Source: a virus
Strand: one strand, 5' to 3'
IMG/VR virus record: IMGVR_UViG_3300010348_000185
DNA: 30,633 bases
Both the position numbers and the translations under genes were made by a program. The notes beneath the pieces are model-generated. The model was not told the DNA's origin and did no database searches. It saw only the letters and a list, made by a program, of their open reading frames with translations. Shown here piece by piece: positions 1,888 to 30,633 of this stretch. The number at the start of each line of letters is the position of its first letter. The first letter of the stretch is position 1.

Positions 1888-2389
1888 TACAATTACCTTT
1901 CTTTTTCACAAGCCATCCTCCTACTGTATATTTTTTTATTGTATCACAGGTTTTAACATATTCAGGAACGGGATTATTTTTTATCCACTCAAGAAACTGA
2001 CCTTCATACAGTCTATAAAGCTTTCTACTTGCTTCTACTAAATAATCAACTTCTTCTTTTGTTACAGTCTCTGAACTATCAGTTTTAGTTTTAGTAATAC
2101 CATTATTAGATACCATATAAGCTCCTTGTGATAAATAAATCTCTGCTGATCCGTGAATAATCATTTCAGTAATATAATCATCAAACATTTCAAGATATAA
2201 ACCAGATAATGTATTATTTTCATAATCTGAAACAATTTTATCATATAATGTTTTACCTAATAATGGTTTAATATAGATGTTCTGGCAAGCTTTGATTGCT
2301 TGTAAGTATCTATCTGTATCAACATTACCACCAATAATAGTGTTACGTGTTAGCTGTTCTTGCTTAATTAAAATAGTTGTTAATGCCAT
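1880..2389 (-). CDS. Hypothetical virion protein, possibly a head-tail connector or adaptor (169 aa)
   Basis: It lies directly downstream of the portal candidate and is coupled to it by a TAATG overlap. No diagnostic motif was found, so the function rests on position only. Confidence 0.3.
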   Translation of the reverse strand: MALTTILIKQEQLTRNTIIGGNVDTDRYLQAIKACQNIYIKPLLGKTLYDKIVSDYENNTLSGLYLEMFDDYITEMIIHGSAEIYLSQGAYMVSNNGITKTKTDSSETVTKEEVDYLVEASRKLYRLYEGQFLEWIKNNPVPEYVKTCDTIKKYTVGGWLVKKKGNCNG

Positions 2390-5602: not shown

Positions 5603-6823
5603 TTATTTATTTATTTTTTTTGTTATTCTTTCAATAGCAGATACTCTACTATCAACAGATACTTCTTTTGCCTTGAAGTTAATTGGTGATTGACCTTTAA
5701 CTTCTGCTTTTAATTTTGTAGATGCTGCTAAGTTTTTTAACTCAACGTTCTCCATTAAAACTGCTTCTTGTTGTGCTGTTAGTTTTTCAATTTCAGCAGT
5801 AAGAGTTTCAATCTTAGCTTTTAATGCTTCAACATCTACCTCTTCAACTGGTTTAAGAACTTCCTCAGCAATGTCTTCTGTTGCTATCATAACCTCAGCT
5901 ACAATTTCTGTTTCAACATCCTCCATAGTTACTTCTTCCGCAACGACTTCTTCTAATTCATCAGTAACCTCTTCTACTAAATCACTAACCTCTACAATTT
6001 TACCAACTTCATCAGTTTGGTATTGTTTATTGTCAGCAATAAACTCAGCATTCATAACTGGGTTTAACTCTGCGTCATAAACAACATTACCAACCTCAAA
6101 AGAGTCTGCTGTAAATGTTCCTAAATTAGTGTCTAATGATGCTAATGAAACCTCTCCCTCACTAATAAGTTTGATAAGTTTTTTTAATAAGCTCATATTG
6201 TTTCTATTATTTTCTCTGCTAGTATAACTCTCGAAGAAACTTCTTTGAGTATCTTCTTTTACTTCTTGTGTTAAGCAGTCTTCACAAGTTGTTTTTTTCA
6301 TATTTATCTTCTCAAATTCAACAAATGAATCAATTGAAAAACCTTTTGCTTTACCTGTTTCTACATACTCAGACCACAATTCATCTGATAACTTCATTCC
6401 AATAACCCAATCACCATTTTCAACTGGTAATCCAATCTCTGATGCCTTATCATTTTCTTTATTCATTACAATCCAGTTCTCAACTACTGTTGTTCCTTCT
6501 AACCAATTATTATGGTCGTGATTAAAAGTAGAGTTTCTTTGATAACCTTTTTTCATAAAGTCTTGTGAAAATCTCTCAATAGTTGGAGCATCAAACATTA
6601 ATTGAAAAGGTGTTCCATCCTCAAACTCTCTATAAATCTTTTGTTCTGGTCTTAAAACAATACCATACAAAATCTTTTTCTTTTCATCAGAAGATAATTT
6701 TATTACTTGCTTTTGTTTATTAAGAGCAATAAAATCAAAACCATTTGCTGGATCATCTACAATAGAGATACCATAAAGGTCTCCATCATTTTCTCCATCA
6801 TATTTAACTTTATAAAGATCCAT
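5603..6823 (-). CDS. Prohead protease (XkdF-like) fused to a scaffolding domain (406 aa)
   Basis: The N-terminal part 'DLYGISIVDDPANGFDFIAL...' resembles XkdF-type phage serine proteases. The C-terminal half is an acidic E/V-rich region followed by coiled coil (ALKAKIETLTAEIEKLTAQQEAVLMENVELK), typical of scaffolds. It lies immediately upstream of the capsid gene. Confidence 0.55.
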   Translation of the reverse strand: MDLYKVKYDGENDGDLYGISIVDDPANGFDFIALNKQKQVIKLSSDEKKKILYGIVLRPEQKIYREFEDGTPFQLMFDAPTIERFSQDFMKKGYQRNSTFNHDHNNWLEGTTVVENWIVMNKENDKASEIGLPVENGDWVIGMKLSDELWSEYVETGKAKGFSIDSFVEFEKINMKKTTCEDCLTQEVKEDTQRSFFESYTSRENNRNNMSLLKKLIKLISEGEVSLASLDTNLGTFTADSFEVGNVVYDAELNPVMNAEFIADNKQYQTDEVGKIVEVSDLVEEVTDELEEVVAEEVTMEDVETEIVAEVMIATEDIAEEVLKPVEEVDVEALKAKIETLTAEIEKLTAQQEAVLMENVELKNLAASTKLKAEVKGQSPINFKAKEVSVDSRVSAIERITKKINK

Positions 6824-6859: not shown

Positions 6860-7429
6860 TCAAGCATAAATAATAGATGTTTTATTTATTCTATAACCGC
6901 TCAAATAACCCCTCAATGTTCTATGATTCATATTTATAGAAATTGCTGCTTCTGTTATAGAATCATAATATATACCTGTCTCTAAATTAATAACTAATTT
7001 TTTACTTTTTCTAGGTCCTTTTAATTTGTCTTTTTGTTCCTGACACATTTTCAATCCTTTATTATATGGTGTAGTTCCTAATTTAGAGTTACTAATTCTT
7101 TTTTTAGTTTCCTCTGAATGTATTTTACCTGTATTACCTATATTACCTTTTAATCCTAATACACCTTCACCACCATCAGTCATATTAACAAGACTACCTA
7201 AACCAAGGTCTCTTCTACCATAATAACTTATTAATAAAATCTCTAAAAAACAAGCTTCTTCCCAAGATATATTATTTTTAATTATTTGTGCCTCATAACC
7301 ATATTTATTGACTATATTATACCAATATTTATTTCGGTTATTTTTAGAATATAGTCTATTTTTATTTTTACCTATACCAATATAAAAAGTCTCACCATTA
7401 GGTTTAATATGTCTGTATATATATGCCAT
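6860..7429 (-). CDS. GIY-YIG homing endonuclease (189 aa)
   Basis: 'YIYRHIKPNGETFYIGIG' gives the GIY...YIG motif, and 'NMTDGGEG' is also present. NUMOD3-like repeats are present ('HSEETKKRISNSKLG', 'QEQKDKLKG'). The C-terminal DNA-binding helix is 'YDSITEAAISINMNHRTLRGYL'. The gene is free-standing between the tape measure and protease genes. Confidence 0.85.
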   Translation of the reverse strand: MAYIYRHIKPNGETFYIGIGKNKNRLYSKNNRNKYWYNIVNKYGYEAQIIKNNISWEEACFLEILLISYYGRRDLGLGSLVNMTDGGEGVLGLKGNIGNTGKIHSEETKKRISNSKLGTTPYNKGLKMCQEQKDKLKGPRKSKKLVINLETGIYYDSITEAAISINMNHRTLRGYLSGYRINKTSIIYA

Positions 7430-7434
7430 AAATA

Positions 7435-9816
7435 TTATATTAAATAATTTAATAACGATATTATTAAAAAAGGATAAAAGGACAAAAACGTAGCATTTGT
7501 TATTCTATTTCTATCTAAACTTTGTTGTGTTGAAACATCTGAACCAACTACATAAGCATTAATAGGTTGTTGTTGCTGTGCTGCTATTTGAGCTGCTAAT
7601 TGATTTGTTCCACTTGCTCCAACTATATTAAATTGAGCAGAAGCACCTCCACCCCCACCAGCATTACCACCACCTCCACCATCAGATCTATTCCAAGATG
7701 TTAATGTTGTTGCTAAAATAGAAGCAATACTTGTTCCTGCTATACCCCAGTTATAAGGTATTTGTGCTAATGACTTAGCAGCACCAGCAGCATAAGATGT
7801 TCCAGCAGAAGCATATGAAGCAGCAGCAATTGGATCAGTAGCAGCTAATGAAGCAGCTAATGCTTTATATAAAGTTGCTTGACTTGAATAATCACCTGCT
7901 CTTTGCTTTAACTTAGCATTTTCTCTTGTTGTTCCTATTACAACTTGTGCTATCTCAGCACCTTTTTGAGCAACTAATAAAACATTTCTTAAATCTTTTG
8001 ACTTAATAATAGCTTCATTTTGTAGTTGGTCCATAAAAGAGAATGAGTTAGCAGTAAGTATCTGAACTTTATCAAAATACTCTTGTTGTGCTTCTAACTT
8101 GGCATCTACTGCTAATTTTTCTTGTTCTATAATAGCCTCAAGCCTTAAATTATTAAGTTCAATCTCTGAATCAGAATCAGATTTTGCTTGATCCTTTTTC
8201 AATTGTCTTATCTGAGTGCTAAAATCTCTTATCTTATCTTCTAAGTCAAAGTATCTTTTAGTCATCTCTTCCATTTCTTTACCATAAATAGATAAGACTG
8301 AACCATCTTTTAGATCTGTTTCTTGTAATCTTTTAACAACATCAGATACTTTTTCACCACCTATTTCAATGTTTCCTAATTGAGATTGTTGTTCTTTTAG
8401 TGATTTTTGTTCTGTTATTAAACTTTGTAATCTATCCTTTCTTGCTGTATTATCAATCTCATATTTCTTTTTAGTTATCAATATATTTTTGTCTAATAAT
8501 TTATTAGTTCTTTCAATTATATCAGCATATCTATTTTGATAAGCACCAAAATCTACCTTCTCAAAGTTCATCATTGACTTATACAATATATCATAACTTG
8601 CTGTCATTTCAGCAAGAACTATATTAGGATCTAAATCCCAAGTATCTTCTCTGGCATCTGGATTTTGTTCTTTTAACCTTTTTATGTTTCTAGAAACTTC
8701 TTTAATAATACTCTCATAAGGTTTATAAGCCTTTATTAATTCATCTAATCTTTTCTTTTGAGTATCATTAAGGTCTTTACCAGCAAGGAAGTTAATCTCA
8801 GTAATTAAAGCCTTAGCAGCATCTCTTGTTGTATAATAAGCATCTGTTAAATTCTTAAACTTAGAATAAACAGGTGTTAAATCATTTAATGTTAAACCAA
8901 CTAAAGCATTATTTATATCAGCAAGAGTTTTACCAGCTTGCTCACCTCTCTGAATAGAAGCATTAATAGCATCTTGTAGTTTCTTTTGTGCTTCTAATTC
9001 TTTGGTTCTTAATCTCTCTCTTCTAAGATTATCTTCTTGTGCTGCTCTAACCTTTGGATCATTAATAGCAGCAGCTCTTACTTTTAATTGCTCATTGATT
9101 GCTTTTTCGTTATCAATATATTTTTGATAAGTCTCATTATATTTATCTGTTCCTTCATCCAATGTTTCTAAAACAGAAGCATACTCTGCTCTTAAATCAA
9201 ATAAGCCTTTTCTTTGACCTTCAATACCAAATAATGCTAAATCTGCTTGTCTCTTTGTTGCTTCAGCTAAATCATTTTGTAAATCAATTATCTCTTGTGT
9301 TGAAGCACCTTCCGCTTCTCTAAGTCTAATCTTTTCTTGAAGGTTTATTATTTCCTCTGCTTGATTTATTTGTGTGACTTGTTGATTTCTATTAAATGTT
9401 TCTTGTTGTGAGTTTAATCTTTCTAAAGCAGCAGTTGAACCATCAATAACACCAACCCATTTATCCCAATTAGTAACTAATTCAAGAACAAGGATTGCTA
9501 ATGCTCCAATACCAGTTGCTATGATAGCACCTCTCAAACCTTTTAGTGAAACACCAGTAAGTTCAATTGCTTCAACAGCATCCTTGAAGTCCATAGCAAG
9601 ACCTCCAGTTGCTGCTGATAATAATCCCATAGCACCACCATTTTTAAGTAAACCATCATTAAGAGTTGTTGTCTCTTTAGATAATGTTCTTGTAGATTGA
9701 ATTATCTTGGTTTGACCAGTTTTCATATTGTCTAAACCATTACCAATTCTATTTAATGCTTCCTCAGCACCATTAGTATTTACATCAATGTTTATTGATT
9801 TATTTATATCAGCCAT
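7435..9816 (-). CDS. Tape measure protein (793 aa)
   Basis: The N-terminal region has a hydrophobic segment (GAIIATGIGALAILVLELV). A long coiled-coil middle follows. The C-terminus is Ala/Gly-rich with GGGGGNAGGGGG and ends '...AYVVGSDVSTQQSLDRNRITNATF', typical of tape measure proteins. Confidence 0.7.
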   Translation of the reverse strand: MADINKSINIDVNTNGAEEALNRIGNGLDNMKTGQTKIIQSTRTLSKETTTLNDGLLKNGGAMGLLSAATGGLAMDFKDAVEAIELTGVSLKGLRGAIIATGIGALAILVLELVTNWDKWVGVIDGSTAALERLNSQQETFNRNQQVTQINQAEEIINLQEKIRLREAEGASTQEIIDLQNDLAEATKRQADLALFGIEGQRKGLFDLRAEYASVLETLDEGTDKYNETYQKYIDNEKAINEQLKVRAAAINDPKVRAAQEDNLRRERLRTKELEAQKKLQDAINASIQRGEQAGKTLADINNALVGLTLNDLTPVYSKFKNLTDAYYTTRDAAKALITEINFLAGKDLNDTQKKRLDELIKAYKPYESIIKEVSRNIKRLKEQNPDAREDTWDLDPNIVLAEMTASYDILYKSMMNFEKVDFGAYQNRYADIIERTNKLLDKNILITKKKYEIDNTARKDRLQSLITEQKSLKEQQSQLGNIEIGGEKVSDVVKRLQETDLKDGSVLSIYGKEMEEMTKRYFDLEDKIRDFSTQIRQLKKDQAKSDSDSEIELNNLRLEAIIEQEKLAVDAKLEAQQEYFDKVQILTANSFSFMDQLQNEAIIKSKDLRNVLLVAQKGAEIAQVVIGTTRENAKLKQRAGDYSSQATLYKALAASLAATDPIAAASYASAGTSYAAGAAKSLAQIPYNWGIAGTSIASILATTLTSWNRSDGGGGGNAGGGGGASAQFNIVGASGTNQLAAQIAAQQQQPINAYVVGSDVSTQQSLDRNRITNATFLSFYPFLIISLLNYLI

Positions 9817-17054: not shown

Positions 17055-17339
17055 TATCTATTAAATTGTCTTTTTATTCTGGCTGCTTCCAGTTCATTCT
17101 TTCTTTTCAAGAAGTTGATATAAAACAGAAACTCATCTGCTGGTGAATCAACCACATCTTTAATTTTTAGATACTGCTCATTAGCAGCAGCAAATAACAT
17201 AGAGTACCAACCAAATTCCTCAGCAAATATACCTTCATCTGAATATGATGTTACTTGTCTTTCTTCATTTTCTTCAACCTCTTCTGGATATAAGTATTTG
17301 TATGGCTTAATAAACTCTTGCTTAAATTGTAAAAAAAAA
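17054..17339 (-). CDS. -1 frame extension of the chaperone-like gene (GT-like fusion product of about 242 aa)
   Basis: In the mRNA sense, 'g ttt ttt ttt ac' (plus-strand A9 at 17331-17339) is a U UUU UUU slippery site. The -1 frame stays open for about 92 codons (FFLQFKQEFIKPYKYLYPEEVEENEERQVTSYSDEGIFAEEFGWYSMLFAAANEQYLKIKDVVDSPADEFLFYINFLKRKNELEAARIKRQFNR) to the TAA at 17054-17056. Confidence 0.5.
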
Positions 17340-17781
17340 CCATAGCGCCTAAAGCAACTTTACAATCAACCTTTAGCATTACATCACAATGCTTGTCAGT
17401 TCCTTCATACTTTTCTATCTCATAATAATTACCCATCTTAGATGTAACTGGTCTATAAAGTATAGAACATATTTTATGTAATTGTTTATCTTTCTCATTT
17501 AGATAAACATCTAAGTCTATAAACTCACCAGTTGAGATTTTAGATAGATTAGGTATAAAACCATACTCAACACCATCAATCTCAAATCTGTGTATAAGGT
17601 CAAAATCTTCTCTTGAAAGAAGTTCATTTATATCACTCATAGTTTTATCAGATATAGATTTCTCAACATCTAAATTACCGTGAATTAGTTTAATAATTTC
17701 TTTTATAACTTTTGAGTCATCCTGATTATAGGTCGATAGAATCAGGTTTATCTCCATTAATTGTCTGATTGTTAATGTCAT
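17251..17781 (-). CDS. Tail assembly chaperone-like protein, zero-frame product (176 aa)
   Basis: 'FIPNLSKISTGEFIDLDVYL' resembles chaperone families. A T9 slippery run and an open -1 frame lie near its 3' end. Confidence 0.45.
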   Translation of the reverse strand: MTLTIRQLMEINLILSTYNQDDSKVIKEIIKLIHGNLDVEKSISDKTMSDINELLSREDFDLIHRFEIDGVEYGFIPNLSKISTGEFIDLDVYLNEKDKQLHKICSILYRPVTSKMGNYYEIEKYEGTDKHCDVMLKVDCKVALGAMVFFYNLSKSLLSHTNTYIQKRLKKMKKDK

Positions 17782-17821: not shown

Positions 17822-19035
17822 TTATCTAATTTTATATTTTTGTATTGCTGGTTTTTTCAACCTATGCATTATTAAATATCTTGCAGCATCAATTAGGTGG
17901 TTATACATATCAACAGGTTTCTCACCTCTTTCAGCCCATATATAATTATTTAACTCTTTAATTAGATTTTTACTTAGAGGATCTATAATAAGTTTATAAT
18001 CTTGCATTAAAAGTAACCCTTCTTTAACTGAACCAGCACCTTTAACACAAGGTTTTATATTAACACCAGTTCTTTTTATTTCTTCGATAAGTCTTCCTTC
18101 TGCTGAATCAGCAATGATTAGTTTATTACCAGCAACAATTCTAAATATATAAGATAACTCAGATGTGGTCTTACCAATTTCATACAATTCTTCTTTTAAC
18201 CAAATAATCTTTCTTTTATTATCTATACTTACTTTAACTAAGGTAGATGGGTCTTCTGACCAACCAAAGTCAGCACCACATTCCCAATCACTATCCTCAT
18301 TAAAATCTCCAATTTCCCAGTTGTTAAATATAACTCCTTCTGATTTATCTAAGAAACCACCCAATATAATGTGTTTATACTTTTGAGGATTATCTAATTT
18401 CATTCTTTTTACTTGTTTTAAGAAACTTTCTGGTAGTTTATCTTCTATATCCTCATATGTAGTGTGAATGTATGTTATATCGTCTGTAATTAAGTTTGTT
18501 CCTTCTTTAATACCTCTACTCTCATAAAATCTTTGATATAACCAACTTGCTTTACTTGTTGGATTAAACATAAGAATAATTTTATTAAAGTGTCTATTAG
18601 AACGAACTGAAAGGTCTATCTTATCAAATGTTTCTTCATCAGGAATTTCTTCACTTTCGTCTATTACAAGTGTATCAATGTTAGCAATAGATTTAAGGTT
18701 TGCTGTTTGCTGACCAGAACCTGCTTTAATACCCTTAAAAATAATTTTAGAACCTGTCAATTTATTTATGATTTCTGATTTAGTAATCTCAAATAAGTCA
18801 TCAAGTTCTAATGTTTGTATTTTATCTATAAACTCAGGAAAGATAGATATAGCAACCGAGGTCATTGTATAACGAGCAAATAAAATAGTTCTACTATTCT
18901 CAAATGTTAAAAGTAAAAGATAGAGAGCAACAGAATAAGACTTTCCACTCCCTCGGGTCAGCGACCCCCACTTACACAATAATAACGAGTATTATTAGCA
19001 AATAGGGGTTTATACTTTTCATTAATTTTTATCAT
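17822..19035 (-). CDS. terL: Terminase large subunit with an interrupted reading frame inside the Walker A motif
   Basis: The main ORF has RGSGKSYSVALYLL (P-loop), 'LVIDESEE' (Walker B-like) and a C-terminal nuclease region. The true N-terminus MIKINEKYKPLFANNTRYYCVSGGR (19035..18961) lies in another frame and ends at a TGA (18960..18958). Together they reconstitute the canonical ...YxxVSGGRGSGKS motif. Confidence 0.8.
18953..18967 (-). other. Candidate recoding site in terL: CGC-UGA-CC-CGA within the hairpin GGGUC-GCU-GACCC, next to a G5 run
   Basis: Read directly from the sequence: 'agt ggg ggt CGC TGA cc CGA ggg agt gga aag'. Skipping 8 nt from CGC to CGA restores VSGGRGSGKS. Confidence 0.4.
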
Positions 19036-19115: not shown

Positions 19116-19409
19116 CTACTTATCACTACTTTCATCCTTACTCTCAAATGAAACTAATTTTGATATATCAACATCATTCACAGTTAATGTTGTTGTTTGA
19201 TTCACATTAGTTATAGGTTTCCCATAAATATATTGAAAGTATAATGTAATTGCTTTTGTATCACCTTGTTTAATCTTTTCTAATAATTTAGAAACAACTA
19301 AACCTCTGTCAATATATTCATCAAATAACTTAATGACATCTTGTTCTTCTGATCTTCTTGGACGACCAGCACCCGGCCTAGCACCACCCCAATTTTCTTT
19401 CTTTTCCAT
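19116..19409 (-). CDS. terS: Terminase small subunit candidate (97 aa)
   Basis: 'WGGARPGAGRPRR' is a basic N-terminal DNA-binding motif common in small terminases. The gene lies upstream of terL. Confidence 0.5.
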   Translation of the reverse strand: MEKKENWGGARPGAGRPRRSEEQDVIKLFDEYIDRGLVVSKLLEKIKQGDTKAITLYFQYIYGKPITNVNQTTTLTVNDVDISKLVSFESKDESSDK

Positions 19410-19885
19410 TATATTTTATGGTATATTTTTTTAGCATCTAAATATGCTTGTCTTGCTTCTTCTTCTGTTTTAAAGAAACCAAGGCTTATATTATTATTAT
19501 TATATCCTATCTGTGAATGAAACTTATTTCTATCCTTCCTATAACAATAACCTTTACTATTTTTTGTATTCCATTGATTTTGTTGGTTTGTAACCTTTCT
19601 TAAATTACATATTCTATTATCATCTTTAATACCATTTATATGGTCTATACAATCAACAATTTCTCCATATTTATAGTAGTAGGCAAATTGATGACCTAAT
19701 AAATTGATAATTTTACCTTTATTATATATATTAAGAAATATATAACCTTTTTTATGTCTTCTAGTAATTTCATTACCACTACTTCCGTATATCTTACCTG
19801 TTATACTATCATAAATATAACCTTTACTAATTGCTAATTTACATTTATCTTCTCTTGTCATCTTGAAACTATTTTGTTTATTCAA
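19409..19885 (-). CDS. HNH homing endonuclease with a C-terminal AP2-like DNA-binding domain (158 aa)
   Basis: 'HQFAYYY...DHINGIKDDNRICNLRKVTNQQNQWN' is an HNH_3-type motif. 'RKDRNKFHSQIGYNNNNISLGFFKTEEEARQAYLDAKKIY' is AP2-like. Confidence 0.85.
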   Translation of the reverse strand: MNKQNSFKMTREDKCKLAISKGYIYDSITGKIYGSSGNEITRRHKKGYIFLNIYNKGKIINLLGHQFAYYYKYGEIVDCIDHINGIKDDNRICNLRKVTNQQNQWNTKNSKGYCYRKDRNKFHSQIGYNNNNISLGFFKTEEEARQAYLDAKKIYHKI

Positions 19886-20295: not shown

Positions 20296-20469
20296 CTATT
20301 TATTTATTTTGTTTATCCAGTTCCATTTAACAACTCTTACTACAAAAGAATATAATAATGCTTCTCCATATCCTATTGGTGTGAATAATCTACTTAGTAA
20401 CATAATCACTAAAGGGTATATTACAAATATACCTATTAAAATAAGTAATAATTTAGTTTTTGAATTCAT
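20296..20469 (-). CDS. Small membrane protein (57 aa, MNSKTKLLLILIGIFVIYPLVIMLLSRLFTPIGYGEALLYSFVVRVVKWNWINKINK)
   Basis: Hand-translated ORF that fills the gap between genes and has a hydrophobic N-terminal helix. The plus-strand ORFs here are antisense artefacts. Confidence 0.4.
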   Translation of the reverse strand: MNSKTKLLLILIGIFVIYPLVIMLLSRLFTPIGYGEALLYSFVVRVVKWNWINKINK

Positions 20470-20938
20470 AATTGTTTTTTATTTTTTCTTTAATTTTATT
20501 AATTCTTAGGTTTATAGTCAAGTGATTTACTCCAATCTCTCTTGCTATTTTTCTTTGTGAGATACCAAATATAAAATGTAGTTGATATAACTTTTTCTCA
20601 AAGTGATTTAATTTGGATACAGTTTCAGATATACAATCTAATTTTTTTTGTTTGATTATATCTTCAATCATCATTTGAGTTAATTCTAAGTCTTCTAATG
20701 AATTATCCTCAAAGTTTGATACATCTACATTACTATCTATTTTATTTACTCTTATACGCTCTAAAAATAAGTTTCTTAATGAGATGAATACATAATTATC
20801 TGTTGCTTTTATATCAGGAACATCCTTAAATCTGATAATTAAGTCGTGTAGAAGATCTTGACTTTCTTTATTGTTGGTAATAATTTTTGAGAAGTTATAC
20901 CATTTTTTATAGTTTAGCTCTATATGATTATTAGACAT
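20453..20938 (-). CDS. ECF-like sigma-70 family sigma factor (161 aa)
   Basis: The region 2-like part is 'SQDLLHDLIIRFKD...NYVFISLRNLFLERIR'. The region 4 helix-turn-helix is 'LNHFEKKLYQLHFIFGISQRKIAREIGVNHLTINLRINKIKEKIK'. Confidence 0.7.
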   Translation of the reverse strand: MSNNHIELNYKKWYNFSKIITNNKESQDLLHDLIIRFKDVPDIKATDNYVFISLRNLFLERIRVNKIDSNVDVSNFEDNSLEDLELTQMMIEDIIKQKKLDCISETVSKLNHFEKKLYQLHFIFGISQRKIAREIGVNHLTINLRINKIKEKIKNNYEFKN

Positions 20939-21300: not shown

Positions 21301-21358
21301 TATATTTAATCTTTTACTATATATTGAAAAGTTTGTGCTCCCTATAAAAAAAAGATGA

Positions 21359-21413
21359 CTATTAGTAATCTAATTACTCGAAGAAGTTTCTTCGAGAGTT
21401 ATACTACTAATAG
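21359..21413. promoter_or_regulatory. Nested palindrome: outer arms ctattagta/tactaatag around the core hairpin ctcgaagaa-gt-ttcttcgag
   Basis: Read directly in a 252-bp ORF-free spacer. The 32-nt core 'tactcgaagaagtttcttcgagagttatacta' (21375-21406) recurs at 24871 and 25365. Confidence 0.6.
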
Positions 21414-21552
21414 CCACTTGAAATAAAGAAATTTATTGCTTTATTTATAGATTGTTTCTATATAAAAGTTTATAATTTATTTTATTTTTTATAATGGTTT
21501 CTTGTATTTCTTATAAATAATAATCCTGTTCCATCTATTAATAACTCTTTAC

Positions 21553-22935
21553 TCATATTTTCTTTTCTGTTTTTATATCTTCTATACTAATCTGTGCGTT
21601 AAGACCAGCAATAAAAAATTGCTCTATTATTTTCATCTGTGAGCGATCTAAATCTTCTTTCTTTATAATTATACTATCGTGTATGAAATGATACTTTATA
21701 TCCATTCTATCAAGCTCTGGTAGTATTCTCTCAACCCATAAAAAACTTTCTGTTCCTTGTAACAATAGAGGTAACATTTTATGCGCTCTTTTTATTTTAG
21801 CAATACTTTTAATGTCATTAAGGAACTTATATATTGTAGGATATATCATAGAGAAAATCTTCTTATATTCATTAGGTGATTTAGAAGGTGAATAAAGAAC
21901 TATGATGAAAATTTGCTTTGCTTCTAATCTTGTCATTTTCTCACCAGTTAAATTAAAAACCTCATTGGCAAAATGTCTATAAATATCATCATTCTCACAT
22001 AAGTTTTTCCACAAATCTAATTCTTTTTTTGATGGTAATTTTACAGTTTTCAATCCTTCTAAAAACCTTACACCGTCTGACTTCCCGAGTGTTTTTTCTA
22101 TAATTCTGTATTCATAAGAGAGATAAGAATTAGAATAAGAATTTACAGGGGACTTTTCACCTCTTAATTCTTTTAATAAATTAAAAAAGATATTTAACAT
22201 TGCTGGTTGAGAAGCAACTATATCCATAGAATAATCATAACCTAAAATAAACTTTTTATAATCACCATTTAGAATAGAAAGATTAGTAGTTATTCTTCCA
22301 TTAGAAGAAGACCTTGATATAAAAAGTTGTTTATCATTTATCTCTAATAATTTTCTTTGTAAAACCGCTTTTGTATATTTAGAAAGTATTCTACCTTTTT
22401 TATCAGGTATTTGATTTACATAACAATTAGTAAGATAGTTCCAAGCAGCAATAAAATCTATCTTAAAATCATTCTTAAAATTATTTTTATGTTTAGTTGA
22501 AACTTTTAGTTTAGTATCTGTTTCATTTATTGCTTTAATAGTTCTATTAAGATAAGTTTTATTCTCCATAGCAATAGAGGTTAAATCATCAACGAAATCT
22601 TCGTTAAGCTTATATGACATAGATTTTTCACCAGGAATATAAAAGTTATCTGTAATAACAACTTTTTCTTGTATTAGATAATCTAAATACAATGAATAAT
22701 CATTATGAAGTATATTATGAAAAGAATTGGTTTGTATTTGTACTAAATTGTTTCTATCTATATCTCTTGAACCCGCCATTCGTAATATAGTATCACATAT
22801 TACTATTAAACCTTCTTTGTCTAAAGAATAAATTTTTGATGATAAATCTTTGTTCCACTTGATATAGACGTGTAGTTTGTTGTCTATAAAGTTTTTAATC
22901 GATACAGGTATGTATCTGTTAAGTTTTTTTTTCAT
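21553..22935 (-). CDS. Miniature family-A-like nucleic acid polymerase (460 aa)
   Basis: Motifs by eye: 'NGRITTNLSIL' (compare TGRLSSxxPNLQNIP), 'YDYSMDIVASQPAML' (motif A) and 'DDIYRHFANEVFNLTGEKMTRLEAKQIFIIVLYS' (motif B, R..AK...F...Y). Also 'LLQGTESFLW' (compare QGTAADL) and 'HFIHDSIII' (motif C). Confidence 0.6.
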   Translation of the reverse strand: MKKKLNRYIPVSIKNFIDNKLHVYIKWNKDLSSKIYSLDKEGLIVICDTILRMAGSRDIDRNNLVQIQTNSFHNILHNDYSLYLDYLIQEKVVITDNFYIPGEKSMSYKLNEDFVDDLTSIAMENKTYLNRTIKAINETDTKLKVSTKHKNNFKNDFKIDFIAAWNYLTNCYVNQIPDKKGRILSKYTKAVLQRKLLEINDKQLFISRSSSNGRITTNLSILNGDYKKFILGYDYSMDIVASQPAMLNIFFNLLKELRGEKSPVNSYSNSYLSYEYRIIEKTLGKSDGVRFLEGLKTVKLPSKKELDLWKNLCENDDIYRHFANEVFNLTGEKMTRLEAKQIFIIVLYSPSKSPNEYKKIFSMIYPTIYKFLNDIKSIAKIKRAHKMLPLLLQGTESFLWVERILPELDRMDIKYHFIHDSIIIKKEDLDRSQMKIIEQFFIAGLNAQISIEDIKTEKKI

Positions 22936-24574: not shown

Positions 24575-24854
24575 CATATATAAATACTCTCAAAACGAGA
24601 GTGCCTCGCACTATACAGAATATGAAATGGAAAAATATAGCGAGTATATGACTTGGGTTGAGGATGAAGTAAATAAATCTGATCTACCAACTACTATTAA
24701 ACATAAAATGATGAGTAAAAGAAATCTTCATAAAAGAAAAAATGGTATGTGGTTTCTTGAAGAAGCCAGTTATGAATTTGAGTTTCTACCATTTAAGCAA
24801 TGGTTATTACAAACTGAAAGAGATGAAAAACTACAATCACTTTTAGGTGATTGA
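24564..24854 (+). CDS. Hypothetical early protein (96 aa) ending in ...RDEKLQSLLGD
   Basis: The last 12 codons lie inside the 95-bp perfect repeat. Confidence 0.4.
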   Translation: MACNIYKYSQNESASHYTEYEMEKYSEYMTWVEDEVNKSDLPTTIKHKMMSKRNLHKRKNGMWFLEEASYEFEFLPFKQWLLQTERDEKLQSLLGD

Positions 24855-24912
24855 TTTCTGTAAAACAGAATACTCGAAGAAGTTTCTTCGAGAGTTATAC
24901 TATCCCAATTGG
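24818..24912 (+). repeat. 95-bp perfect direct repeat, copy A (gene 3' end plus two hairpins)
   Basis: It is identical to 25312-25406. It contains 'RDEKLQSLLGD*', the hairpin ttctgt-aaa-acagaa, the hairpin ctcgaagaa-gt-ttcttcgag, and 'agttatactatcccaattgg'. Confidence 0.95.
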
Positions 24913-24963
24913 TACTACTCGATTAACGTGAGTGCGAAGCACTATAAAAAATAAATAAGAAAT

Positions 24964-25146: not shown

Positions 25147-25348
25147 ATTAAACCTATTTTATAATAATAATTTAATTGTAACTATTTATAGAAGTGATAT
25201 TCTTTGTAAAGGAAGCCTAATATCATTTGATGGTAATTTAGAATATATTGTAGTTAATGTAAATGAAAATGAAAATATATATGATGCTTTTTTAATGACT
25301 ATTCAAGAAGCAAGAGATGAAAAACTACAATCACTTTTAGGTGATTGA
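25139..25348 (+). CDS. Hypothetical early protein (69 aa from the ATG; the ORF track starts at a TTG at 25124) ending in ...RDEKLQSLLGD
   Basis: The ATG at 25139 overlaps the upstream stop (ATGAATAA). The last 12 codons lie inside the 95-bp repeat. Confidence 0.4.
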   Translation: MNKLNLFYNNNLIVTIYRSDILCKGSLISFDGNLEYIVVNVNENENIYDAFLMTIQEARDEKLQSLLGD

Positions 25349-25406
25349 TTTCTGTAAAACAGAATACTCGAAGAAGTTTCTTCGAGAGTTATACTATCCC
25401 AATTGG
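25312..25406 (+). repeat. 95-bp perfect direct repeat, copy B
   Basis: It is identical to 24818-24912. Confidence 0.95.
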
Positions 25407-25428
25407 GACTATAAAATAAAATAATAGA

Positions 25429-25779: not shown

Positions 25780-26598
25780 ATGAATATAAATTTGATAAAC
25801 GGAGATTGTTTAGAACTTATGAAATCTATACCAGATAAAAGTATAGATCTTATTTGTTGTGATTTACCATATGGGACGACAGATACACACGGTGGTAAAA
25901 AAAGCAAAAATAGATTTTTAGAATGGGATAATATAATACCACTTGATAAACTATGGATTGAGTATAAAAGAATTATTAAAGATAAAGGAGTTATTTGTTT
26001 GAATGCCGATCAACCATTTACCTCTAAATTGATAATTTCAAATTTAGAGTGGTTTAGATATGAATGGATATGGAAAAAAAATATAACAACTGGTTTTTTA
26101 CACGCTAATCATAGACCTATGAAACAAACCGAAGATATTGTTATTTTCTCACCTGCAGGAGCATCACCATCAGCGACAAAAGGCAATAATTCTATGACAT
26201 ATAATCCACAAGGATTAATAGAAAAGGTTGTTCAAAAAAAGAATAGTAAAAATAGATTAGGTAAATTTTTACTAAATGAGGAGTTTTTGGGTAAAAATAA
26301 TAAATTAATAAGTGGAAAAGAATATACTCAAAGATTCACAAATTATCCAAAAGAAATAATAGAATTTGATATGGATAAAGATACCATACATCCCACACAA
26401 AAACCAGTTTCTCTAATAGAATATTTAATAAAAACATATTCTAATGAAGGTGATACGATACTTGATAATTCTATGGGTTCTGGAACAACAGGTGTTGCTT
26501 GTGTAAGAACTAATAGAAATTTTATAGGAATTGAATTGGATCAAAAATTCTTTAATCTTGCTAAGGAAAGAATTAATAGAGAAAAAGATAAAGTATAA
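25780..26598 (+). CDS. DNA methyltransferase, beta-class N6-adenine/N4-cytosine family (272 aa)
   Basis: Motif IV is 'DLICCDLPYGT' (DPPY-like). 'HPTQKP' is present. Motif I is 'ILDNSMGSGTTGVAC'. The C-terminus is 'NFIGIELDQKFFNLAKERI'. Confidence 0.85.
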   Translation: MNINLINGDCLELMKSIPDKSIDLICCDLPYGTTDTHGGKKSKNRFLEWDNIIPLDKLWIEYKRIIKDKGVICLNADQPFTSKLIISNLEWFRYEWIWKKNITTGFLHANHRPMKQTEDIVIFSPAGASPSATKGNNSMTYNPQGLIEKVVQKKNSKNRLGKFLLNEEFLGKNNKLISGKEYTQRFTNYPKEIIEFDMDKDTIHPTQKPVSLIEYLIKTYSNEGDTILDNSMGSGTTGVACVRTNRNFIGIELDQKFFNLAKERINREKDKV

Positions 26599-26836: not shown

Positions 26837-27361
26837 ATGAGTGATATAAAACAAAAATATATAGTAACCAATAAGAATGGTAGTTACCAAGTGATGGTTT
26901 GGTTAAATGGAAAACATCATTATATAGGCATCTATAAAACAATAGAGGAAGCAATTATTGAAAGAGATAAGTTTATAAAAAAGTATAATGTAGTACCTAA
27001 ATATAATAATATATACTTTGATAATAAAGAAGCTTATAAAGAAATTATTATATCACAAGCACAAGGTAGATTAACACCTAAATTAATGTCTCAATTATTA
27101 AAAATAGTTAAAGGTGTTTCTAAAAAGTTTTACTATAAAGACCAAGATGATAGATTAGATTGTGAAGCTTATGCGGTTGAGATGATAATGAAAAACTGGT
27201 ATCACTTTGATGAAAATAAATATGATAATGTCCTTTCCTATTTTACTGAGATAGTAAAACGTGCTTTTGCTTTTCAATGGAAGCAATTACAAAAAAGCAG
27301 AATAAATACAATTAGTTTAGATTATACTAATGAAGATGGTGATAGAATAATTAATATATAA
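26837..27361 (+). CDS. T4 gp55-like late sigma factor with an N-terminal AP2-like domain (174 aa)
   Basis: 'SQLLKIVKGVSKKFYY...EAYAVEMIMKNWYHFDENKYDNVLSYFTEIVKRAFAFQWKQLQK' parallels T4 gp55. From memory, gp55 reads 'LIAEGLSKRFNF...[41 protein letters not shown]'. The N-terminal 'GSYQVMVWLNGKHHYIGIYKTIEEAIIERDKF' is AP2-like. Confidence 0.6.
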   Translation: MSDIKQKYIVTNKNGSYQVMVWLNGKHHYIGIYKTIEEAIIERDKFIKKYNVVPKYNNIYFDNKEAYKEIIISQAQGRLTPKLMSQLLKIVKGVSKKFYYKDQDDRLDCEAYAVEMIMKNWYHFDENKYDNVLSYFTEIVKRAFAFQWKQLQKSRINTISLDYTNEDGDRIINI

Positions 27362-30122: not shown

Positions 30123-30545
30123 TTATATCATAATTTTATTAGCTTGTATAAAAATATCATTAACCTGTAAATCAGTCAATCCTAAAGATGATTGAATAAA
30201 AAGCACAGTCGGACTATTTCTATCTATCGCTGTTCCATATTCCCATATATACTTAGCAGCAGTTCTATTAGGCTCTTGTAATAATTCTAATGCATTTTCT
30301 ATAGCAGTTTCTAAATTCATTATTCTTAAAACAACTCTTAATCTCCATAATGGTATTTCAATAGGACAATTATGTCTTATTTCTTCTTCTTCAGTAAATA
30401 AATTACTTGGTTCTACAGTACCTCCAGCTGTTAAAAACTGAACATAGTCTTGATAAAGTGATGAGCCTTCGTCCATCGGAATTAAAGTGATAGTATCGTT
30501 ATCACATTTAATTATATTTCCATATTTTGATGTTTTATATTGCAT
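30123..30545 (-). CDS. Hypothetical protein (140 aa), possibly a fibre-associated accessory or chaperone by position
   Basis: It lies immediately downstream of the fibre gene on the circular map. Its first 13 codons are also present at 1-39 because of the terminal repeat. Confidence 0.25.
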   Translation of the reverse strand: MQYKTSKYGNIIKCDNDTITLIPMDEGSSLYQDYVQFLTAGGTVEPSNLFTEEEEIRHNCPIEIPLWRLRVVLRIMNLETAIENALELLQEPNRTAAKYIWEYGTAIDRNSPTVLFIQSSLGLTDLQVNDIFIQANKIMI

Positions 30546-30633
30546 ATCTTATATTTTAATTATTTGTCATTATATAACTTCCATACCAATCAAATCCTGT
30601 TGTTGCATTTGGACCTGTTGTATCTACAATGTA
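30507..30633. repeat. Terminal direct repeat, right copy, identical to 1-127.
   Basis: Same comparison as for 1-127. The length of 127 bp fits a k-mer overlap left by an assembler on a circular contig. Confidence 0.95.

What the first reader, a model, noticed from the sequence alone, without database searches (positions are those of the whole stretch)
21553..22935. 460-aa family-A-like polymerase with an RNAP-type HDS motif C and no steric-gate Glu; the only polymerase in the genome
The protein carries the full order of Pol I-family palm and fingers motifs in about 260 residues. 'NGRITTNLSIL' corresponds to TGRLSSxxPNLQNIP. 'YDYSMDIVASQPAML' is motif A, with Asp234 encoded at 22234-22236. 'DDIYRHFANEVFNLTGEKMTRLEAKQIFIIVLYS' is motif B; compare Taq 'RDIHTETASWMFGV...RRAAKTINFGVLYG'. 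'LLQGTESFLW' corresponds to QGTAADL. 'HFIHDSIII' is motif C, with its Asp at 21676-21678. Three things are unusual. First, only about 230 residues precede motif A, so there is no room for an exonuclease domain and little for a normal thumb. Second, motif C reads HDS as in T7-type single-subunit RNA polymerases (IHDS), not the HDE of family-A DNA polymerases. Third, motif A reads DYSMDIVA rather than DYSQIELR, so the Glu that excludes rNTPs is missing; the D..S........AML spacing also resembles T7 RNAP 'DGSCSGIQHFSAML'. No helicase, primase or other replication gene was recognised, and the phage also encodes two sigma-like factors. The enzyme's substrate (DNA versus RNA synthesis, or primer synthesis) is therefore open. 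It may represent a minimal, undescribed branch of the Pol A / ssRNAP superfamily.
Basis: partly seen in the sequence, partly recalled or inferred. Interest (0 to 1): 0.85.

Follow-up and report, generated by a model that had tools for sequence, protein, structure and literature searches.

The report
Minimal TV-Pol-like family-A polymerase
This small phage's only recognisable replication enzyme is a stripped-down relative of DNA polymerase I, from a very large, unannotated family that Bacteroidota phages and integrative elements carry; it probably starts DNA replication, and a family of this type was predicted in 2008 but never tested.

Summary
Six residues (R214, D238, Y319, K340, E396, D420) are invariant in 176 relatives that average about 20% identity. 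An AlphaFold model (pLDDT 90.6) matches only family-A DNA polymerases among its top 45 PDB hits.

Three details of the finding are wrong:
- The motif A aspartate is D238, not D234.
- The steric-gate glutamate is not simply missing. It is replaced by a near-invariant glutamine, Q243.
- The "T7-like AML" resemblance is not conserved.

HDS is not an RNA-polymerase signature. CcPol, a proven dNTP-using polymerase-primase, reads HDA at that position.

The family is not an undescribed branch. Its size, architecture, Bacteroidota hosts and integrase/resolvase neighbourhoods fit the TV-Pol family (Iyer, Abhiman and Aravind 2008), which was predicted to be a primase-polymerase. My direct sequence tests of TV-Pol membership were only marginal. 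Pfam, NCBIfam and PHROGs have no model for the family.

The family is very large: at least 6,466 clusters at 50% identity. Of 169 genome matches to its motif C pattern, 166 were confirmed relatives, and all 80 loci examined were Bacteroidota.

Most likely function (inferred): an exonuclease-less DNA polymerase/primase that initiates replication of the element. The verdict is a new variant of a known kind, of moderate interest.

The parts
21553..22935 (-). Complete ORF of 460 aa: the minimal family-A (TV-Pol-like) polymerase
   Evidence: ORF and translation. 39 close and at least 6,466 distant homologue clusters. AF2 model pLDDT 90.6, pTM 0.85. Foldseek finds family-A DNA polymerases only in the top 45 PDB hits.
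22561..22935 (-). N-terminal alpha/beta domain (residues 1-125) with conserved P10, Y80, Y83, Y86-L87, D96, Y99, K104-S105, Y108. Winged-helix-like; function unknown.
   Evidence: Conservation. Secondary structure from the models. A separate model of residues 1-205 has pLDDT 91.3. Its PDB fold search gave no significant hit (best E = 0.14). The weak list is dominated by winged-helix DNA binders: plasmid RepA_N-DNA complex 5kbj, MarR, ScpB, PadR.
22324..22560 (-). Helical region (residues 126-204, four helices), the candidate reduced thumb
   Evidence: DSSP of the models shows helices 126-142, 147-156, 161-173 and 186-200. It sits directly before the Arg hairpin, as the thumb does in Pol I and TV-Pol. 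The assignment as thumb is inferred, not superposed.
22270..22323 (-). Beta-hairpin 'FISRSSSNGRITTNLSIL' carrying invariant R214 (equivalent to Klenow R668 in TGRLSS..NLQN)
   Evidence: Strands 206-208 and 215-217. R214 is present in 176/176 members; family consensus GR[LI]H[ST]NLT. hhalign pairs R214 with R668 and N218-L219 with N675-L676.
22186..22248 (-). Motif A 'ILGYDYSMDIVASQPAMLNIF'. Catalytic D238 is at 22222-22224. Gln243 at the steric-gate position is at 22207-22209.
   Evidence: D238 176/176, Q243 175/176, P244 169/176; D234 is not conserved. The motif aligns without gaps to Klenow D705...E710 and to CcPol 'TIDFKSFEP', where E174 = Klenow E710.
21700..22185 (-). Fingers subdomain (residues 251-412), all-helical, inserted between the palm strands. 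It includes invariant Y319, in the 'DIY' string that lines up with Pol I 'DIH'.
   Evidence: Helices in the model. Y319 is invariant. Colinear alignment to Klenow.
21880..21942 (-). Motif B (O-helix) 'EKMTRLEAKQIFIIVLYSPSK': R336, K340, I344, Y348
   Evidence: K340 176/176 and R336 158/176. Position K+4 is Phe in 118/176 (Ile in this protein). Position 348 is Tyr 90 / Phe 85. These pair with Klenow R754/K758/F762/Y766 and with T7 DNAP and T7 RNAP motif B.
21736..21774 (-). 'LPLLLQGTESFLW' motif (Q393, E396, S397), equivalent to Pol I QGTAAD
   Evidence: Q393 171/176 and E396 176/176. Q393 pairs with Klenow Q849.
21661..21699 (-). Motif C 'IKYHFIHDSIIIK': H419, catalytic D420 (21676-21678), S421
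   Evidence: H419 174/176 and D420 176/176. Position 421 is Ser 153, Ala 10, Cys 9, and never Glu. These pair with Klenow H881-D882-E883. CcPol has HDA here.

Best explanation
The gene encodes a catalytically competent, exonuclease-less, minimal Klenow-fold (family-A) polymerase of the TV-Pol type. Its order of parts is: an N-terminal alpha/beta, winged-helix-like domain; a short helical thumb; an Arg-bearing beta-hairpin; and a palm with a small helical fingers insert.

The most likely function is replication initiation for this phage, and for the many Bacteroidota integrative elements that carry relatives. The enzyme would copy DNA with dNTPs and probably make its own primer (primase-polymerase). 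The fused N-terminal domain would hold the template or origin. The host replisome would do the bulk synthesis.

Shown: the fold, the conserved active-site residues, the lack of an exonuclease, the family size, the host range and the gene neighbourhoods.

Inferred: DNA rather than RNA synthesis, de novo priming, the role of the N-terminal domain, and hand-off to host enzymes.
For: Fold and active site:
- The AF2 model has pLDDT 90.6. PDB Foldseek ranks 1-45 are all family-A DNA polymerases, E = 1.7e-5 to 1.4e-3.
- The best BFVD matches are 400-450 aa phage proteins; a few of the matches are labelled DNA polymerase.
- hhalign against a Klenow/CcPol profile gives P = 7e-4 with every motif colinear.
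- R214, D238, K340 and D420 are invariant across 176 members.

DNA rather than RNA:
- The single-subunit RNAP profile aligns only at motif B, P = 0.08.
- The first RNAP in the PDB fold list is at rank 46.
- The gate position holds a bulky Gln.
- K+4 is Phe, as in Pol I, in 67% of members. The Tyr639-equivalent position is Tyr or Phe about 1:1.
- CcPol (HDA; Phe where Pol I has the motif B Tyr) strongly prefers dNTPs and, with its partner MP, primes with dNTPs only.

Replication-initiation role:
- It is the only polymerase-like enzyme in the window and in related 31-35 kb phage contigs. No helicase, primase, SSB or integrase was detected.
- The window has a 127-nt terminal overlap and encodes a terminase, so protein-primed linear replication is unlikely.
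- In 80 Bacteroidota chromosomal loci it sits with a tyrosine integrase in 59. An HTH_17 excisionase-like gene lies directly upstream in 28. AAA_24 and DUF3871 genes recur. A resolvase is present in L001.
- This is the position that Rep or primase genes occupy in integrative elements. It is also the context from which TV-Pols were predicted to be primase-polymerases.
- No conserved small partner gene was found next to it. This fits a fused template-binding domain.
Against: - There is no biochemistry for any member of this family.
- Plain sequence HMMs do not link it to Pol A or to TV-Pol. The assignment rests on a predicted structure and on one marginal profile-profile score.
- Full-length TM-scores to Pol I are low, 0.2-0.38.
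- The active site deviates from every characterised DNA polymerase A: Gln instead of the gate Glu, and HDS instead of HDE. Sugar selectivity therefore cannot be read off.
- The N-terminal domain has no significant structural match, so its DNA-binding role is a guess.
- Relatives also occur in 595-735 kb phage genomes. Whether those genomes have their own replication genes was not checked here; if they do, the role there is not simply 'sole replicase'.
- CcPol needs a separate OB-fold partner to prime, and no such partner was found here.
Confidence: 0.5

Rival explanations
1. A primer-dependent, exonuclease-less DNA polymerase with no primase activity. It would either replicate the whole 30.5 kb genome with host helicase and primase, or serve repair or gap filling.
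For: It has the same fold and motif evidence as the main explanation. CcPol alone, without MP, is strictly primer-dependent. No MP-like partner is conserved next to the gene. Relatives in 595-735 kb phage genomes fit an accessory polymerase. divPolA2, a structural neighbour, was proposed as a repair DNA polymerase.
Against: No processivity factor, clamp motif or helicase is linked to it. A reduced thumb and the absence of proofreading are poor features for a bulk replicase. The strong link to integrase and excisionase genes puts it where initiators or primases normally sit. An extra N-terminal domain conserved family-wide has no obvious role in simple gap filling.
Confidence: 0.2
2. A DNA-dependent RNA polymerase. 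It would be either a miniature transcriptase or an RNA-primer synthase acting at the origin, as T7 RNAP and mitochondrial RNAP do.
For: Motif C reads HDS, as in T7 RNAP (IHDS). There is no Glu at the steric gate. UniProt automatically names one member 'DNA-directed RNA polymerase'. Mitochondrial RNAP appears in the fold hits at rank 46. The N-terminal domain could recognise a promoter. The related divPolA2 was also considered a possible RNAP.
Against: DNA polymerases outrank RNAPs in the fold search and in profile comparison: score 37, P = 7e-4, against score 23, P = 0.08. The RNAP profile was less diverse, which weakens this comparison. HDA occurs in the dNTP-preferring CcPol. The gate residue is a bulky, invariant Gln. 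As I recall from the literature, T7 RNAP has Gly542 there. The Tyr639-equivalent position is Phe in about half of the members. As I recall, the Tyr hydroxyl is required for rNTP selection in T7 RNAP. The phage carries sigma-like factors for the host RNAP. The integrase/excisionase context argues for replication.
Confidence: 0.15
3. Not a working polymerase in vivo. It would be a DNA-binding initiator (Rep-like) or a regulatory or defence-related protein that merely keeps a polymerase-like scaffold.
For: The N-terminal domain gives weak winged-helix / plasmid RepA_N-like matches. The family is undetectable by polymerase HMMs. Some loci lie next to restriction-modification genes.
Against: Both metal-binding Asp residues, the O-helix Arg and Lys, and the primer-terminus Arg are invariant or nearly so across about 20%-identical sequences. 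That pattern indicates selection for catalysis. There is no match to any PADLOC defence model.
Confidence: 0.05

Closest known systems
TV-Pol (Transposon-Virus polymerase) family, Iyer, Abhiman & Aravind 2008, Biol Direct 3:39 (PMC2579912)
   Same: Proteins of 400-600 aa with a minimal family-A core and no nuclease. They share the helical thumb, the beta-hairpin with an absolutely conserved Arg, two conserved palm Asp residues and RxxxK in the fingers. A subset has an extra N-terminal globular domain. They are found in Bacteroidetes among other phyla, and in neighbourhoods with lambda-type integrase or resolvase. They were predicted to be primase-polymerases. All of these features are seen here.
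   Different: The direct sequence link was not established. The family HMM does not detect the likely TV-Pol of Microcystis phage Ma-LMM01, and profile-profile P is about 0.05. The paper predicts the N-terminal TV-PolN domain to be all-helical; here the domain is alpha/beta. No D5-like helicase is linked. The 2008 paper does not describe a tailed phage in which this is the only replication enzyme; its case with a TV-Pol as the only replicative enzyme is the Sputnik virophage. I could not see its alignment figure, so I do not know whether the Gln gate / HDS signature is shown there.
CcPol-MP primase-polymerase of staphylococcal SCCmec (Bebel et al. 2020, PMC7581432; Rice 2023, PMC10061031)
   Same: An exonuclease-less family-A polymerase (369 aa) encoded by a mobile element and counted as a TV-Pol. 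Its motif A 'DFKSFEP' aligns without gaps to this family's 'DIKNSQP'. Its motif C is HDA, so it also lacks the HDE Glu. It has Phe where Pol I has the motif B Tyr. hhalign of this family against CcPol gives P = 0.0025.
   Different: CcPol keeps the gate Glu (E174). It is recognised by Pol I HMMs (NCBIfam E = 1e-8), whereas this family is not. It lacks the N-terminal domain. It needs a separate OB-fold protein (MP) to prime and is linked to a helicase (Cch2). It occurs in Bacillota, not Bacteroidota.
divPolA2 of barbaviruses and related phages (Virol J 2024, PMC11348598)
   Same: A phage protein of about 430 aa with a Pol A palm and fingers, no exonuclease, no canonical thumb and an N-terminal globular domain of unknown fold. 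Its function is openly debated (repair DNA polymerase or RNAP). It is a structural neighbour: a Rheinheimera barbavirus protein of this type is BFVD hit 8, E = 3e-6.
   Different: Its motifs differ: 'YDFKAFET' (Glu gate), 'RNICKMIMTRIYY' and 'VFDEV'. The family HMM barely touches it, and hhalign gives P = 0.08. It always accompanies a regular PolB in 80-130 kb phages, whereas here the protein is the sole polymerase of a 30.5 kb phage.
Canonical DNA polymerase I polymerase domain (Klenow, Taq, Bst; Pfam PF00476)
   Same: Same fold by Foldseek. Colinear equivalents exist for R668, D705, R754, K758, F762, Y766, Q849, H881 and D882.
   Different: No PF00476 hit, even at E = 10. No exonuclease domains. 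The thumb and fingers are much smaller: motif B Lys to motif C Asp is 80 residues, against 124 in Klenow (K758 to D882). Gln replaces the steric-gate Glu, and Ser replaces E883.
T7-like single-subunit RNA polymerases (Pfam PF00940)
   Same: Same superfamily. The motif B spacing R-x3-K-x7-Y is identical, and motif C reads IHDS in both.
   Different: No PF00940 hit. Only motif B aligns in the profile comparison. The protein is half the size or less. No promoter-specificity loop or N-terminal RNAP domain was detected. The gate residue is Gln. The Tyr639-equivalent position is not conserved as Tyr.

Membership tests
Family-A (Klenow-fold) polymerase superfamily | Right-hand palm/fingers fold shared with Pol I, T7 DNAP and T7 RNAP | tested here: met
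   The AF2 model (pLDDT 90.6) gives 39 PDB matches at E <= 1e-3. All of ranks 1-45 are family-A DNA polymerases. TM-scores are low (0.2-0.38) because of the extra N-terminal domain and the smaller subdomains.
Family-A (Klenow-fold) polymerase superfamily | Two metal-binding Asp residues (motifs A and C) plus the O-helix R-x3-K-x7-Y, in the canonical order | tested here: met
   D238, D420 and K340 are invariant; R336 is 90% conserved; position 348 is Y or F. They align colinearly to Klenow D705, D882, K758, R754 and Y766.
Family-A (Klenow-fold) polymerase superfamily | Recognition by curated sequence models (Pfam PF00476 DNA_pol_A, PF00940 RNA_pol, NCBIfam Pol I models) | tested here: not met
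   No hit for the window protein at E <= 10. None for 10 distant members. None in NCBIfam. Profiles A1 and A2 found nothing in PDB sequences.
Canonical DNA polymerase A (DNA-dependent DNA polymerase) | Steric-gate Glu five residues after the motif A Asp (Klenow E710), and the HDE triad in motif C | tested here: not met
   The gate position is Gln243 in 175/176 members. Motif C is HD[S/A/C] and never HDE. CcPol, an active DNA polymerase, also lacks the HDE Glu (HDA) but keeps the gate Glu.
Canonical DNA polymerase A (DNA-dependent DNA polymerase) | dNTP-dependent, template-directed DNA synthesis | not testable with these tools
   Needs a purified-protein assay.
TV-Pol family (Iyer et al. 2008) | Minimal domain: helical thumb, then a beta-hairpin with an absolutely conserved Arg, then an RRM-like palm with two conserved Asp residues, with the fingers (RxxxK) inserted after the first palm strand | tested here: met
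   Helices 161-173 and 186-200; hairpin 206-217 with R214 invariant; D238 at the end of strand 235-239; helical insert 242-410 with R336-x3-K340; strands 415-424 with D420. The additional 'conserved aspartate' of the fingers is not conserved here: position 316 is Gly in 93% of members, and the invariant residue is Y319.
TV-Pol family (Iyer et al. 2008) | No fused or linked nuclease. Occurs in viruses and mobile elements with an integrase, resolvase, transposase or D5-like helicase. | tested here: met
   Tyrosine integrase in 59/80 loci and HTH_17 directly upstream in 28. Resolvase plus integrase in L001. Phage genomes (window). No D5-like helicase was seen.
TV-Pol family (Iyer et al. 2008) | Sequence-profile connection to named TV-Pol members (Ma-LMM01, Sputnik V13, CcPol, Bacteroidetes proteins) | tested here: inconclusive
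   hhalign of A2 against CcPol gives P = 0.0025, and against the Klenow/CcPol profile P = 7e-4. Against the presumed Ma-LMM01 TV-Pol (MAP_030) and six relatives, P is about 0.05, and the family HMM finds nothing. That MAP_030 is the TV-Pol is my inference. The Bacteroidetes sequences of the 2008 paper could not be retrieved.
TV-Pol family (Iyer et al. 2008) | N-terminal TV-PolN domain, predicted all-helical | tested here: inconclusive
   An N-terminal conserved domain exists, but the model is alpha/beta (five strands plus helices in residues 1-125). There are weak, non-significant N-terminal alignments to MAP_030.
T7-like single-subunit RNA polymerase | Profile or structural closeness to single-subunit RNAPs, an invariant Tyr at the T7 Y639 position, and a small residue at the gate position | tested here: not met
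   hhalign against the T7-like RNAP profile gives P = 0.078 and aligns motif B only. The first RNAP in the fold list is at rank 46. Position 348 is Tyr 90 / Phe 85, and the gate is Gln. The roles of Y639 and G542 in T7 RNAP are from my own knowledge of the literature.
CcPol-MP type PolA-SSB primase | A small OB-fold partner gene (MP) and a helicase in the same operon | tested here: not met
   No flanking small ORF is conserved among related phages. No helicase appears in the window or in related contigs.
divPolA2 (Virol J 2024) | Sequence membership with the representative AUR84708 | tested here: not met
   The family HMM scores 0.9 bits. hhalign gives P = 0.08. The motifs differ (Glu gate, FDE).

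The most novel reading that the evidence does not exclude
The family is a self-contained, single-chain primase-polymerase of the Klenow fold. The fused winged-helix-like N-terminal domain would recognise an origin or hold ssDNA. The Gln-gated, HDS active site would start chains de novo, possibly accepting both rNTPs and dNTPs. That would make it a third kind of replicative primase, beside DnaG and the archaeo-eukaryotic primases. It would be used by thousands of Bacteroidota integrative elements and by a group of small tailed phages as their only replication enzyme. It would also be a living approximation of the ancestor of Pol I and T7-type RNAPs.
Probability: 0.3. Interest if true: 0.75.

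Novelty: new variant of a known kind. Interest (0 to 1): 0.55.

Why it matters
If the inferred function holds, a very large family supplies the replication start for much of the Bacteroidota mobilome and for a group of about 30 kb tailed phages. The family has at least 6,466 clusters at 50% identity, and all 80 genome loci examined were Bacteroidota. It has no model in Pfam, NCBIfam or PHROGs. NCBI labels the members checked 'hypothetical protein', and UniProt's automatic names for two members contradict each other (RNA polymerase versus DNA polymerase).

It would also provide a natural family-A enzyme with Gln at the steric gate and Ser after the catalytic Asp. That is useful for understanding, and for engineering, sugar selectivity and de novo initiation in Klenow-fold polymerases. 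It would finally test the 2008 TV-Pol primase-polymerase prediction outside the atypical CcPol.

In practice, a curated model for this family would let annotation pipelines stop calling such phages 'replication-gene-free'.

Tried and rejected
1. Direct HMM searches found nothing. This covered the single protein, the 38-sequence profile and the 136-sequence profile against Pfam, PHROGs, NCBIfam and PDB sequences.
2. hhalign against single T7 DNAP and T7 RNAP sequences aligned only motif B and was not significant.
3. tblastn of the window protein against 50,697 phage records gave no hit. One distant member gave no hit against plasmids. Two distant members hit only unannotated 595-735 kb phage genomes.
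4. The N-terminal domain was modelled alone and searched against the PDB. No significant match was found, so a 'replication initiator winged helix' is only a weak hint.
5. I tested the link to a named TV-Pol carrier, Microcystis phage Ma-LMM01. I picked ORF MAP_030 (506 aa, next to transposases) as its TV-Pol and spent the last large homology search on it. Only 6 relatives were found, the profile had low diversity, and the result was non-significant.
6. divPolA2 as the same family: rejected on motifs and scores.
7. Defence-system component: rejected, with no PADLOC hit.
8. Protein-primed linear replication: rejected, because the contig has a 127-nt direct terminal overlap and encodes a terminase.
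9. Conserved MP-like partner ORF: none found by BLAST among four related phage contigs.
11. A first genome scan with the broad alignment failed because no stretch was conserved enough. It succeeded with a tighter sub-alignment.
Full report
**The object.** The window is a complete, circularly assembled phage genome. Its ends overlap by 127 nt and its G+C is about 22-35%. The ORF at 21553-22935 on the minus strand encodes 460 aa. The rest of the genome encodes:
- a large terminase (17822-18979);
- a portal (2389-3495);
- an XkdF-type protease (5603-6823);
- a tape-measure-like protein (7435-9816);
- collagen-like and beta-propeller tail proteins;
- HNH endonucleases;
- an N6/N4 DNA methyltransferase (25780-26598);
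- two sigma-like proteins (20453-20938 and 26837-27361).

No other polymerase, helicase, primase, SSB or integrase was detected. The only caveat is a weak PHROG hit of ORF 17251-17781 to 'replication initiation protein' (E = 9e-5).

The protein alone hits nothing in Pfam, PHROGs or PDB sequences. It does have 39 close homologues. A profile search of 1.84 billion cluster representatives found 6,466 relatives at E <= 1e-3 and 979 at E <= 1e-30, typically 420-500 aa long.

In an alignment of 176 members that mostly share 20-25% identity with the window protein:
- R214, D238, Y319, K340, E396 and D420 are invariant;
- Q243, P244, P366, K376, Q393 and H419 are at least 96% conserved.

The family consensus motifs are:
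- GR[LI]H[ST]NLT;
- [LV]S[IV]D[IL]xNSQP[YFL]L;
- RxxxKxxxFxxL[YF]S;
- LLQxIES;
- [FT]IHDS.

This pattern is selection on an active site, not chance.

Three details in the finding are wrong. The conserved motif A aspartate is D238, not D234, which is Leu in 70% of members. The 'AML' likeness to T7 RNAP is not conserved. The steric-gate position is not vacant (see 'Active-site peculiarities').

**Fold.** An AlphaFold2 model built on the 38-sequence alignment is confident (pLDDT 90.6, pTM 0.85). Foldseek against the PDB returns only family-A DNA polymerases in ranks 1-45. These include the apicoplast polymerase, Aquifex, Bst, Klenow and Taq Pol I, T7 DNAP, Pol theta and Pol gamma, with E = 1.7e-5 to 1.4e-3. 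The first RNA polymerase, yeast mitochondrial RNAP, appears at rank 46. TM-scores are low (0.2-0.38), as expected for a protein with an extra domain and shrunken subdomains.

In the viral structure library the best matches are uncharacterised phage proteins of 400-450 aa. One of the top two is labelled 'putative DNA polymerase I', and the top two have query-normalised TM-scores of 0.65-0.68.

**Motif mapping.** From the published Promals3D alignment in Rice 2023 I rebuilt a 13-sequence Klenow/CcPol polymerase-domain profile. I compared it locally with the broad family alignment. hhalign gives score 36.9 and P = 6.8e-4 over motif B to motif C. With a greedier setting it lays all motifs colinearly:

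| This protein | Klenow |
|---|---|
| R214 | R668 |
| N218-L219 | N675-L676 |
| D238 | D705 |
| Q243 | E710 |
| R336 / K340 / I344 / Y348 | R754 / K758 / F762 / Y766 |
| Q393 | Q849 |
| H419-D420-S421 | H881-D882-E883 |

A T7-like single-subunit RNAP profile aligns only motif B (score 23.2, P = 0.078). That profile was built from 76 relatives and has low diversity. Structure and sequence therefore agree that the protein lies on the DNA-polymerase side of the superfamily. Plain HMMs cannot see this.

**Active-site peculiarities.** The comparison with CcPol changes that reading. CcPol is the SCCmec polymerase shown to be an A-family DNA polymerase. It prefers dNTPs strongly, and with the small protein MP it makes DNA primers de novo using dNTPs only.
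- Its motif C is HDA.
- Its motif B ends in LFGG.
- Its motif A 'DFKSFEP' aligns without gaps to this family's 'DIKNSQP'. The authors equate CcPol E174 with Klenow E710.

So a small residue after the catalytic Asp is compatible with DNA synthesis. The gate position here is occupied by Gln in 175 of 176 members. Gln has nearly the same shape as Glu, so steric exclusion of a 2'-OH is plausible, but this is inference.

Two further features argue against an RNAP-type mechanism. The position equivalent to T7 RNAP Tyr639 is Tyr in 90 members and Phe in 85. Position K+4 is Phe, as in Pol I, in two thirds of members. The Gln-gate plus HDS combination is, as far as I could find, not described for any characterised family-A enzyme.

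**Architecture upstream of the palm.**
- Residues 1-125 form a conserved alpha/beta domain.
- Residues 126-204 are four helices, a plausible reduced thumb.
- Residues 205-217 form the hairpin that carries R214.

Modelled alone (pLDDT 91.3), the first 205 residues have no significant PDB neighbour. The weak list (E >= 0.14) is dominated by winged-helix DNA binders, led by a plasmid RepA_N-iteron complex. A DNA-binding role is therefore a hint, not a result.

**Distribution and context.** No cultured or annotated phage carries a detectable relative. Distant members hit only unannotated 595-735 kb metagenomic phage genomes.

A scan of one genome per GTDB species with the motif C pattern found 169 matches, of which 166 were confirmed relatives. 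All 80 retained loci are Bacteroidota: Flavobacteriales, Chitinophagales, Bacteroidales, Cytophagales and others, including Riemerella, Chryseobacterium, Winogradskyella, Tenacibaculum, Alistipes and Prevotella.

A clustering census of the neighbours in those 80 loci shows:
- a tyrosine integrase in 59, most often two genes upstream on the same strand;
- an HTH_17 excisionase-like gene immediately upstream in 28;
- divergent DUF3871 (16 loci) and AAA_24 (14 loci) genes;
- Cro/CI-type HTH genes (12 loci).

Individual look-ups show the same picture, with a resolvase in one case.

In related 31-35 kb phage contigs the gene is again the only large non-structural enzyme. It sits next to a divergent promoter region. 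No small flanking ORF is conserved among these phages.

**Comparison with what is known.** These properties match the TV-Pol family defined by Iyer, Abhiman and Aravind in 2008:
- proteins of 400-600 aa;
- a minimal superfamily-A core, with a helical thumb, an Arg hairpin, two palm Asp residues and RxxxK in the fingers;
- no nuclease;
- a subset with an extra N-terminal domain;
- presence in Bacteroidetes;
- neighbourhoods with lambda-type integrase, resolvase or transposase;
- a predicted primase-polymerase function.

As of 2020 no TV-Pol other than CcPol had been characterised. I found no later work on a Bacteroidota branch. Recent surveys of family-A polymerases and of bacterial polymerases do not mention this family.

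My direct membership tests were only partly successful. The link to CcPol is marginal (P = 0.0025 to 7e-4). The link to the presumed TV-Pol of Microcystis phage Ma-LMM01 is not significant. That clade has its own motif flavour: GLRxYE..GGLQG, D..KCHATIA, LQxxEV and QHDGA. The N-terminal domain is alpha/beta, whereas TV-PolN was predicted to be all-helical.

divPolA2, described in 2024 as an exonuclease-less phage PolA of uncertain function, is a structural neighbour. It has a Glu gate and FDE, and it is not a sequence relative.

NCBI names the members I checked 'hypothetical protein'. UniProt's automatic names for two members contradict each other: 'DNA-directed RNA polymerase' and 'DNA polymerase family A palm domain-containing protein'. 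The family is in no defence catalogue.

**Most likely mechanism.** Shown: a Klenow-fold polymerase with an intact two-metal site and a template/primer-contacting Arg and Lys set, no proofreading, a small thumb and small fingers, and a conserved extra N-terminal domain. It is the sole replication-type enzyme of a terminase-packaged 30.5 kb phage. It is a core gene next to the integrase and excisionase of Bacteroidota islands.

Inferred: it uses dNTPs, it can start chains de novo (primase-polymerase) with the N-terminal domain holding the template or origin, and the host replisome extends the product.

| Explanation | Confidence |
|---|---|
| Primase-polymerase that initiates replication | 0.5 |
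| Plain primer-dependent DNA polymerase | 0.2 |
| RNA polymerase or RNA-primer synthase | 0.15 |
| Non-catalytic role | 0.05 |

**Verdict.** The RNAP-leaning reading and the claim of an undescribed branch are not supported. The protein is best filed as a new variant of a known but essentially unstudied kind: TV-Pol-like minimal family-A polymerases. Its points of interest are a distinctive Gln-gate/HDS active site, a very large distribution restricted to Bacteroidota in the loci examined, and no curated model. Interest is moderate (0.55). It would rise if single-chain priming or relaxed sugar selectivity were demonstrated.

Noticed in passing
window 21377-21396, 24873-24892, 25367-25386 (and 6230-6249 with one mismatch): The perfect 20-nt palindrome CTCGAAGAAGTTTCTTCGAG occurs three times in intergenic DNA; none is expected by chance. 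One copy lies about 160 nt downstream of the polymerase stop codon, nested in a larger inverted repeat (21356-21373 / 21399-21416). Two copies lie inside a 100-nt, 99% identical direct repeat (24818-24917 / 25312-25411) in the plus-strand early region. They could be terminators, operators or origin elements.
   Followed up: partly
window 1-127 and 30507-30633: The two ends of the window are identical over 127 nt. The contig is therefore a circular assembly, or carries a direct terminal repeat, of a complete genome of about 30.5 kb.
   Followed up: yes
window 17251-17781 (minus strand, 176 aa): This ORF lies just downstream of the large terminase. It has a weak PHROG hit to 'replication initiation protein' (phrog_1408, E = 9e-5, residues 19-82) beside a stronger hit to an unknown-function PHROG. 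It is a possible second replication-related or DNA-binding protein.
   Followed up: no
window 26837-27361 (plus strand, 174 aa): One small protein matches both a 'late sigma transcription factor' PHROG (residues 55-149, E = 1.6e-10) and HNH endonuclease PHROGs (residues 11-101, E = 1e-8). The two matches overlap, so this 'sigma-like factor' may be an HNH/HTH protein rather than a sigma factor.
   Followed up: no
L002 4726-6969, L010 2949-5220, and 14-16 of the 80 Bacteroidota loci L011-L090: A three-gene block recurs divergently next to the polymerase-like gene in chromosomal islands. It comprises a beta-rich protein of about 113 aa, an AAA_24 RecA-like ATPase, and DUF3871. It may be a recombination or ssDNA-handling module that works with the polymerase. 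The 113-aa protein could be an SSB/MP analogue.
   Followed up: partly
LR756511.1 395209-396363; LR756501.1 525522-526586; LR756504.1, LR745206.1, LR756502.1: Distant members of the family are encoded in unannotated metagenomic phage genomes of 595-735 kb. The protein is therefore not confined to small elements. Whether those genomes carry their own replication genes was not checked.
   Followed up: no
L171 22746-24266 (Microcystis phage Ma-LMM01 ORF MAP_030, minus strand): This 506-aa hypothetical protein lies next to two transposase genes and is probably the phage's TV-Pol. With six metagenomic relatives it shows its own conserved motifs: GLRxYE..GGLQG, D..KCHATIA, TVKTAxLAxINGA, LQxxEV and QHDGA. 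It also has an N-terminal 'PYIQTNL' that resembles this family's 'YIPxNL'.
   Followed up: partly
window 6860-7429, 19409-19885, 26837-27361: This 30.5 kb genome carries three homing-endonuclease-type ORFs: a NUMOD3 ORF, an HNH_3+AP2 ORF and an HNH-like ORF. One of them (19409-19885) lies just upstream of the terminase.
   Followed up: no
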